From Eledone cirrhosa (Eukaryota): a stretch of DNA of 64,000 nucleotides. The notes under the pieces were generated by a model. The model saw only the letters and a program-made list of their open reading frames with translations, was not told the DNA's origin and made no database searches. The stretch is taken from contig OZ024741.1 in NCBI GenBank assembly GCA_964016885.1, positions 413,416,001 through 413,480,000 of the forward strand, read 5' to 3'. A program made the translations under genes and the position numbers. This document shows positions 60,006 to 61,780 of this stretch, in pieces (within the stretch, counting starts at the first letter, position 1; each line of letters opens with the position of its first letter).

Positions 60006-60315
60006 TATTATATATATATATATATATATATATATATATATATATATATATATAATTATATATATATATATATATATATATATATATATATATATATATA
60101 TATATATATATATATATATATATATATATATATATATAAAGAAAAAGCGATGATATCGAAAATGCAACAGGAGTCTTATTTTTTAAAAAATATATATATT
60201 TATTTGGTTCCTTTACCGGTTTCGCAGTTCTTCTGCTTTTCAAAAGGTGAGTTGAGATGGAGGGTCTGTGGTTTTTCTCACATCAGAAAAACCACAGACC
60301 CTCCATCTCAACTCA

Positions 60316-60353
60316 CCTTTTGAAAAGCAGAAGAACTGCGAAACCGGTAAAGG
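60316..60353 (+). ncRNA. Minimal hammerhead ribozyme motif with U3-A8 covariant core, mirrored on the - strand at 60210-60247
   Basis: cctt-TTGAAAA-gcag(aagaa)ctgc-GAAA-ccgg-TA-aagg; palindromic stem III (accggt). Confidence 0.68.
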
Positions 60354-61780
60354 AACCAAATAAATATATATATTTTTTAAAAAATAAGACTCCTGTTGCA
60401 TTTTCGATTTCATCGCTTTTTCTTTATACTTTCACTCGTGTAGGACACCTCGGTTATTTTTCATTTTGTAAAAAAAACCTCACTTTCTAATATATATATA
60501 TATATATATATATATATTTATCCGGGAGAGATGACCCCTTAGCCTTTGTCAAAGCAGAATTCTAGGAGAAGGAAAACTCTGATATAACACCTGCAACTCT
60601 GATGGTATCCAATGATGTTGACATGTTCTTCTTTTTCTTAAATATCATCTTGGTTAAGAGAGTGGGACTGGCTTTGTGCAGTGCCTTTGCTCACTTTAAA
60701 AGCTTCACGGCACAGGCATTGCTTTATATCTGGAGATCTCTCTGCACTTGTCATCACATGGTACCATGGGCCCAGCACTAAGTGCCAATAATTGTCACAA
60801 GTGTAGTGTTTATACCAGAGTTTTCAAGTCACTGGCTGGACTAAAAAGTCACATTCGTTCAGCGCATCGGTAGGAGTTCTCCTACATGGATATAAAGTAG
60901 TGGCCGTACTCGAAAACGAGTTGGCAGCTACCATATATATATATATATATATATATATATATATATGTGTGTGTAGAAGTTCTATTTAAATTGTTGGGAT
61001 ACAACAAGCAAATATTTTTATAACTGATATAAAGCACTCAACAAATTATTAGAGTAAAAATACGATATATTAACAAATGGAAACTATATTTATAAAACCA
61101 TATTTATTTCATGACTATCCGGGAGCTTCCAACAGAAATGGTCGCATTCTTTAAGGGTATGTCAATATTTATTTATAAAACTGATCTATATTATATTTTA
61201 TCTGATGAAAGCACACCATAATTTAACTTGGTGTCCTTGAAATATGTATAATGAAATAAATATGGTTTTATAAATATAGTTTCCATTTGTTAATATATCG
61301 TATTATATATATATATATATTTATATATATATATATATATATATATATATATATATATATATATGTGTATATATATATATATATTGTGTATGTGATACAG
61401 TGAAGTGCTGGTGATTTACCTACTTTCCTCATTATTGTTGAAACCATAATCGTGTCGCCTTCCCTAGTGTTGATGTCGGCCTCCCTAGTGTTGATGTCGG
61501 CCTCCCTAGTGTTGATGACAGCCTCCCTGTGTGTTGATGACATGGTTGATGATGTGTTGATAAAGTGGTTAGTGATAAAAAGGGCAATCCAGCCAAACAA
61601 AGGGTTGGAAGGACCCCTCAGTCATGTCCACCCTACACAATTTATTGAGTAATGGTACTCCTAAGATCCTTCAGAGGAACCTCGAGCATAGCTAACCAGC
61701 ACGAAACCCAGTGGTAGACCATGGGCAAGATGGTTGAATAACATTCTTGAACTCTGTTCTTTTCACTTGGGGACAGAAGA

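What the first reader, a model, noticed from the sequence alone, without database searches (positions are those of the whole stretch)
60134..60427. ~290-bp hairpin with mirrored U3-A8 variant minimal hammerheads
Seen: arms of about 140 bp, nearly perfect, around a 6-nt loop; each arm contains cctt-TTGAAAA-gcag(aagaa)ctgc-GAAAC-CG-GTA-aagg. Known: C3-G8 is a tertiary pair that tolerates U3-A8, and minimal PLE hammerheads with palindromic stem III act as dimers. This family is unrelated in sequence to the one at 37832, and a canonical CUGANGA search would miss it.
Basis: partly seen in the sequence, partly recalled or inferred. Interest (0 to 1): 0.7.

Follow-up and report, generated by a model that had tools for sequence, protein, structure and literature searches.

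The report
Back-to-back Penelope retrotransposon end stubs
This hairpin is two short ends of an abundant Penelope-like jumping gene joined head to head in a TA repeat, each carrying a known variant of a predicted self-cutting RNA motif, and it likely formed when both broken DNA ends started copying the same RNA.

Summary
In detail: 144-nt arms, 99% complementary, with a U3-A8 minimal type I hammerhead motif on each strand. The parent is a young ~4.7-kb Neptune-type Penelope-like element (RT, CX4CXXC linker, GIY-YIG), with 13,143 exact motif matches in this genome.

The hairpin is a miniature inverted pLTR pair. In 40 of 45 sampled head-to-head pairs one arm ends at a short site and the other carries a ~65-nt tail; none is symmetric. 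45 of 99 inner ends cluster about 40 nt before the motif, probably the RNA start; only 2 fall at the predicted cut site.

A sister family (56% aa identity) keeps U3-A8, the ACCGGT palindrome and two compensated pairs, but has A13C.

The two motifs lie on opposite strands. One transcript holds only one, buried in double-stranded RNA, so this locus is unlikely to act as a cis dimer.

U3-A8 PLE hammerheads and inverted pLTRs with tails are published. This scan has already reported the same architecture for other families in this genome. Cleavage was not tested.

The parts
60135..60284 (-). Inverted, 5'-truncated pLTR copy ending at the short 3' end (family position +108, counting U3 as 0); includes the 6-nt 'loop'
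60285..60428 (+). Direct pLTR copy, from the inner junction to the short 3' end
60429..60496 (+). One-sided tail up to the long 3' end (family position about +177); in full elements this is the sequence just upstream of the ORF1 ATG
60316..60353 (+). Minimal type I hammerhead motif: stem I 60316-19/60350-53, U3-A9 core 60320-26, stem II 60327-39, GAAA 60340-43, palindrome ACCGGT 60343-48, predicted cut after 60349
60210..60247 (-). Identical hammerhead motif on the minus strand (U3 at 60243)
60279..60285 (.). Inner head-to-head junction at the family's 5'-end hot spot (-36 to -43; inferred RNA start)
60007..60134 (.). (TA)n target microsatellite, left flank
60497..60517 (.). (TA)n target microsatellite, right flank

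Best explanation
The hairpin is a miniature insertion of an abundant, young Neptune-type Penelope-like retrotransposon: two short copies of its hammerhead-bearing end joined head to head inside a TA repeat, likely made when both cut DNA ends primed reverse transcription on the same RNA. Shown: the parent element, two fixed outer ends, the one-short-one-long rule, the inner-end hot spot and the (TA)n target. Inferred: (1) a promoter in the pLTR starts the RNA about 42 nt before the motif; (2) the GIY-YIG domain cuts both strands of (TA)n; (3) each 3' end primes at one of two internal sites about 65-70 nt apart, both at TATA-like template sequence; (4) both cDNAs run off the nearby RNA 5' end after only 150-220 nt and are joined, often through short overlaps at the near-palindromic CAGATGTG. 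In the parent RNA the U3-A8 motif would be a weak, dimer- or protein-dependent ribozyme. In this stub it is likely inert, because each transcript carries one copy buried in a 144-bp duplex.
For: PARENT: ORF2 of 775 aa with RVT_1 and GIY-YIG, plus DKG and CX4CXXC; full tandem and inverted copies with 98.7-100% identical repeats. ABUNDANCE: 13,143 and 17,841 exact matches for two short patterns, controls 0; 1,577 hairpins turning at the same place. OUTER ENDS: 83 long, 54 short, 9 other of 146 arms. Of 45 head-to-head pairs, 40 are long+short, 5 long+other, 0 symmetric; 118 of 136 classed ends are followed by TA-rich flank. INNER ENDS: 45 of 99 at -43..-36. SAME SOURCE: arms agree at 193 of 218 subfamily-diagnostic cells against 117 expected. 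SISTER FAMILY: same hot spot at TCAGA and two outer ends. LITERATURE: two internal RT starts define the tail and both strands are cut and extended in vitro (PMC11167929); an inverted 5'-truncated copy plus tail is typical of PLEs (PMC8557442; PMC3846280).
Against: No RNA data, so the RNA start is inferred from DNA ends only. Twin priming and fold-back both predict concordant arms; 13 rare variants are shared by both arms (96 are in one arm only). 56 of 146 arms were not adjacent to a partner within 80 nt. One sister pair (L219) scored long/long by BLAST and was not resolved on rereading. PMC3846280 explains head-to-head junctions by self-priming on an antisense template instead. The sample is the first ~27 Mb of one contig, picked by exact motif matches.
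Confidence: 0.72

Rival explanations
1. Same element and same stubs, but made by fold-back: one cDNA snaps back on itself at the near-palindromic CAGATGTG (or self-primes on an antisense template) and copies itself until it stops at the short site.
For: Many junctions have short overlaps or palindromes (gaps of -1 to -14; junction strings). The arms share subfamily alleles and 13 rare variants. PMC3846280 proposes self-priming.
Against: It needs a second, fixed stop at +108 that coincides with a site also used alone as a 3' end in (TA)n. Arms of very unequal inner length, such as -489/-953 or 88/-220, join with almost no loop, which fits two separately truncated cDNAs better. Both strands are extended in vitro in PMC11167929.
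Confidence: 0.18
2. The hairpin is a functional small ribozyme element in its own right (retrozyme- or MITE-like), whose two motifs work as a dimer or which spreads as a unit.
For: 1,577 similar hairpins; 72 of 85 motif-spanning arms have an intact core.
Against: Junctions differ between loci and inner ends range from -1667 to +131, so no fixed unit is copied. The motifs are on opposite strands and sequestered. Within the family the core is only modestly more conserved than flanks, and not significantly once base type is matched (A/T p=0.08, G/C p=0.52).
Confidence: 0.06
3. The palindrome is an assembly artefact from fold-back long reads.
For: Near-perfect 144-bp arms; no laid contig spans the whole stretch.
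Against: The tail is one-sided and there is one arm mismatch here. Arms within hairpins differ by 2.8% on average. Contigs of 3 other runs (2 studies) show loose ends at 60282-84 and 60428.
Confidence: 0.02

Closest known systems
U3-A8 minimal hammerheads of Cercyon PLEs, Schistosoma mansoni (Cervera and de la Pena 2014, PMC4209133; parts 1-2 of 4 read)
   Same: U3-A8 core, type I fold, 4-bp stem I, palindromic 15.2-16.2 region, location in the pLTR; the paper also reports dual min-HHRs 100-700 bp apart on opposite strands and about 1,300 U3-A8 hits.
   Different: Stem II here is 4 bp without the unpaired base after A9 (7-8 bp with a bulge there); a 4-nt CCGG sits between A15.1 and U16.1; different host and family; 13,143 near-identical matches rather than heterogeneous motifs.
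Neptune clade of EN+ Penelope-like elements (definition from PMC8557442 passages and two supplement alignment rows)
   Same: [quoted passage not shown]
   Different: The tail is about 65-70 nt (30-40 usual); there are two overlapping ORFs (409 and 775 aa open frames) rather than one; clade not confirmed by a tree.
Poseidon_Ac internal RT initiation (Frangieh et al. 2024, PMC11167929; parts 1-2 of 4 read)
   Same: Two RT start sites bracket the tail, both lie downstream of the hammerhead, targets are AT-rich, and uncut RNA is the main template.
   Different: C3-G8 core there. Here genomic stubs also mark a sharp 5' limit; the parts read do not discuss inverted stubs.
Metazoan non-LTR retrozymes (bioRxiv 10.64898/2026.07.22.740005; part 1 of 5 read)
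   Same: Short non-coding, type I hammerhead-bearing, PLE-derived sequences.
   Different: Retrozymes are head-to-tail tandem units; this is a head-to-head pair with variable junctions, contiguous with the autonomous element.

Membership tests
EN+ Penelope-like element | RT followed by C-terminal GIY-YIG endonuclease in the parent | tested here: met
   Pfam RVT_1 E 1.3e-6 (28.7 bits, just under the 29.6 cut-off; another copy 30.1) and GIY-YIG E 2.1e-6 above cut-off
EN+ Penelope-like element | Partial tandem pLTRs, inverted 5'-truncated copy, one-sided tail | tested here: met
EN+ Penelope-like element | Single ORF | tested here: not met
   Two overlapping open frames, 10 of 11 junction copies out of frame; PMC8557442 Fig. 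1 legend allows a frameshifted ORF1 in some PLEs (clade not visible to me)
Neptune clade | CX2-5CxxC linker before the EN, CCHH cysteines, DKG motif | tested here: met
   CGRSNCGTC at 645, two Cys between the GIY- and YIG-like motifs from 682, DKG at 155; resembles Neptune rows in the supplement (compared by eye)
Neptune clade | RT phylogenetic placement (Neptune versus Nematis) | not tested
   No reference RT set was available as sequences
Hydra clade | DKT instead of DKG, CxCX5C linker, no CCHH, under 3 kb | tested here: not met
   DKG, CX4CXXC, ~4.7 kb unit
Naiad/Chlamys | N-terminal endonuclease | tested here: not met
   GIY-YIG at residues 682-772 of 775
Minimal type I hammerhead | Core N3-U4-G5-A6-N7-N8-A9, G12-A13-A14-A15.1, U16.1-H17 with a 3-8 pair | tested here: met
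   U3-A8 in 85 of 85 motif-spanning arms; A13C in the sister family
Minimal type I hammerhead | Stems I and II supported by covariation | tested here: inconclusive
   Two double changes (C-G to U-A in stem I, G-C to U-A in stem II), but only two lineages in 6 rows; the fourth stem I pair is broken in 4 of 6
Minimal type I hammerhead | Palindromic stem III allowing a dimer | tested here: met
   ACCGGT kept in both families; dimer fold -22.5 against 2 x -7.5 kcal/mol pairs the palindrome but in an extended, not purely catalytic, register
Minimal type I hammerhead | Self-cleavage after H17 | not testable with these tools
   No assay; DNA ends show no peak at the site (2 of 99; 5-6 of 100 by eye)
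Non-LTR retrozyme | Head-to-tail tandem non-coding units, each with a hammerhead | tested here: not met
   Head-to-head pair continuous with the coding element

The most novel reading that the evidence does not exclude
Thousands of stubs record both RT start sites and the RNA 5' end of a Neptune retrotransposon but not its ribozyme cut. A sister family that spread to over 4,000 copies keeps U3-A8, the stems and the ACCGGT palindrome while losing A13. The motif may therefore be kept for RNA dimerisation or protein loading that feeds two reverse transcriptases at once, rather than for cleavage.
Probability: 0.2. Interest if true: 0.6.

Novelty: new member of a known kind. Interest (0 to 1): 0.27.

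Why it matters
How Penelope-like elements make inverted repeats, and what their hammerheads are for, is still open (PMC8557442 says so in its Discussion). This family offers a very large, young data set: two fixed outer ends, a strict one-short-one-long pairing, a sharp inner limit, and a natural A13 versus C13 pair of sister families that can be assayed side by side. The locus itself is an ordinary, probably inert stub, and both the U3-A8 variant and the architecture are published.

Tried and rejected
Rfam: no hits at gathering; only generic hairpin models at relaxed E, so a miRNA gene reading was rejected.

C3-G8 relative: a search for one with the same palindrome gave 2 matches against 140 in the reversed control, so none was found.

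Cleavage footprint: none seen. 2 of 99 inner ends lie at +29..+31. Of the first 100 listed of 171 mixed junctions, 5-6 start at +30 and 11 at +27, tallied by eye.

Within-family conservation: a first estimate (0.6% core) was dropped because some loci had been chosen by the core pattern. The unbiased estimate is 1.1% against 2.4% (p=0.005 overall, not significant by base type, arms not independent).

RNA: no RNA holder listed, so expression is untested. No laid contig spans the locus.

One search used a mis-indexed structure and is replaced.

Papers: Lunse et al. 2017 (dimeric PLE hammerheads) could not be read, so whether it covers U3-A8 or A13 variants is unknown. Search listings only: hammerhead + U3-A8, 1 paper; octopus + Penelope + hammerhead, nothing on this family; Penelope + twin priming + inverted, 2 papers, unrelated by title and abstract start; Penelope-like + ribosomal frameshift + Neptune, 0 papers. 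The library lacks most subscription papers and Repbase, and the supplements of PMC4209133 were not examined.

Full report
Observation. The arms are 60135-60278 and 60285-60428, 144 nt, 99% complementary and 6 nt apart; the fold has z = -39. A pattern scan finds the type I motif with core TTGAAAA at 60320 (+) and 60243 (-). The two motifs are on opposite strands. A transcript in either direction reads the antisense arm first and then one motif, which the predicted fold buries in the duplex. Rfam does not detect the motif, and the isolated motif folds no better than shuffles.

Family and parent. The right arm hits many 96-100% identical copies (408 candidates, 40 scored). A 24-letter motif pattern has 13,143 exact matches and a downstream 20-mer 17,841, both with zero control matches. 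Several copies run upstream into a reverse transcriptase and a GIY-YIG domain. Eight stretches picked for a 775-codon open frame show a ~4.7-kb unit in partial tandems with inverted copies at the 5' side; five of them show a 409-410-codon upstream frame. [quoted passage not shown] That fits Neptune and excludes Hydra and Naiad as defined in PMC8557442 (section 11 and passages read; supplement rows). No tree was built. The 81 first-listed endonuclease hits at 100% identity and recurrent open 775-codon frames show that the family is young. The host is an animal with a 3.0-Gb assembly; that its repeats look cephalopod is recalled, not tested.

Anatomy of insertions. Positions count from U3. From 120 overlapping fetched stretches in the first ~27 Mb of contig 1, 146 arms were recovered. 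Outer ends: 83 long (about +177), 54 short (about +108), 9 other. Of 45 adjacent head-to-head pairs, 40 are long+short, 5 long+other, and none is symmetric; 56 arms had no adjacent partner. Long arms carry a true tail (2.2% divergence over +110..+150). 118 of 136 classed ends abut TA-rich DNA. In full elements the tail is the sequence just before the ORF1 ATG. The window copy has a short left arm and a long right arm ending near 60496. Among arms chosen only by the downstream anchor, 45 of 99 inner ends lie at -43..-36, 27 further upstream, 27 at -35..+60, and 2 at the predicted cut (+29..+31). Genome-wide, 1,577 hairpins turn at this hot spot with varied junctions. 171 have one arm there and the other starting inside the motif; by eye 5-6 of the 100 listed start at +30 and 11 at +27, so there is no cleavage peak. 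Paired arms share subfamily alleles (193 of 218 against 117 expected) and differ by 2.8% against 5.3% between loci.

Is the motif under selection? Within the family, the core differs by 1.1% and flanks by 2.4%; this is not significant when matched by base type. U3-A8 is present in 85 of 85 arms spanning it. A sister family (56% aa identity; 4,086 matches) keeps U3-A9, ACCGGT and both stems with two double changes. Motif identity between one copy of each family is 79% against 49-50% in the outer flanks and 64% just upstream. However, 99 of the 100 listed sister matches read GCAA for GAAA (A13C), a departure from the consensus core listed in PMC3088659 (passages). The sister shows the same inner hot spot near TCAGA and two outer ends. 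Of 7 fetched pairs, 6 are long+short (3 read directly, 3 by BLAST) and 1 is unresolved. Across 875 kb of fetched DNA, strict motif clusters were 6 C3-G8, 8 U3-A8 (several are variants of this family; four distinct families by eye) and 2 mismatched, with none in shuffles.

Mechanism. Shown: parent, ends, pairing rule, targets. Inferred: a pLTR promoter starts the RNA near -42; the endonuclease cuts both strands of (TA)n; each end primes at one of two internal sites; both cDNAs run off the close 5' end and are joined. This rests on PMC11167929 (parts 1-2 read). There a Poseidon protein cuts and extends both strands and starts at two internal sites that bracket the tail; it uses uncut RNA, and its hammerhead cleaves only with protein. 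The rival is fold-back or antisense self-priming (PMC3846280 passages). The motif would need a partner from a direct tandem copy or in trans; the dimer fold pairs the palindromes.

Comparison with what is known. PMC4209133 (parts 1-2) already reports U3-A8 minimal hammerheads in PLEs, pairs on opposite strands 100-700 bp apart, and low activity even as dimers. PMC3088659 reports natural U3-A8 and cites activity in vitro. Inverted pLTR plus tail is the standard PLE layout. I found no paper on this family or on twin priming in PLEs in my searches, which cover only the held library. Earlier notes of this scan describe the same stubs, twin priming, U3-A8 Neptune motifs and the frameshift in other parts of this genome; a look-up by sequence found none for this arm. 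I had reached this reading before opening them.

Verdict. A real feature and a new member of a known kind: a truncated, inverted end pair of a Neptune-type PLE. Interest is low to moderate, mainly for the pairing rule, the missing cleavage footprint and the A13C sister family.

Noticed in passing
L096:5492-5579 and sister L210 near 3468-3500: ORF1 and ORF2 overlap out of frame at T TTT TTA in 10 of 11 family junctions, and 3 sister copies keep the same heptamer in the same frame: a candidate -1 frameshift, or a 3' splice site. No strong downstream structure was predicted.
   Followed up: partly
window 60435-60442; L210 tail: Both families keep ACTCGTGT a few bases after the short end, in a weak 7-bp hairpin that includes the short end (-3.4 and -2.0 kcal/mol); possible RT start signal.
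   Followed up: partly
G000 sister family, e.g. L210:6821-6858: Sister Neptune-type family with U3-A8 plus A13C in 99 of 100 listed matches out of 4,086.
   Followed up: partly
window 37833-37938 and about 63460-63560: Palindromic stubs of another family with a CTGATGA core in the 37.8-kb copy; no similarity to this family.
   Followed up: no
window 45651-45840: Another hairpin with a one-sided extension in (TA)n, recurring beside other loci.
   Followed up: no
window 61194-61260: C3-G8 type I hammerhead-like motif with a long stem II and 8-bp stem I; relatives in L006, L212 and L217.
   Followed up: no
window 63076-63249: AT-rich ~84-bp-arm palindrome centred on (TA)n.
   Followed up: no
window 58989-60005 (-): Non-LTR RT fragment with a PHD finger, directly left of the (TA)n target.
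   Followed up: no
window 49081-53313 (-): Broken Helitron-like element: Helitron_like_N and Pif1 2B domains.
   Followed up: no
window 40112-43258 (+): 1049-codon open frame with AP endonuclease and RT domains, a LINE ORF2.
   Followed up: no
L210:2644 and L174: Two further unrelated U3-A8 motifs (TTGATAA core) with closed stem III.
   Followed up: no
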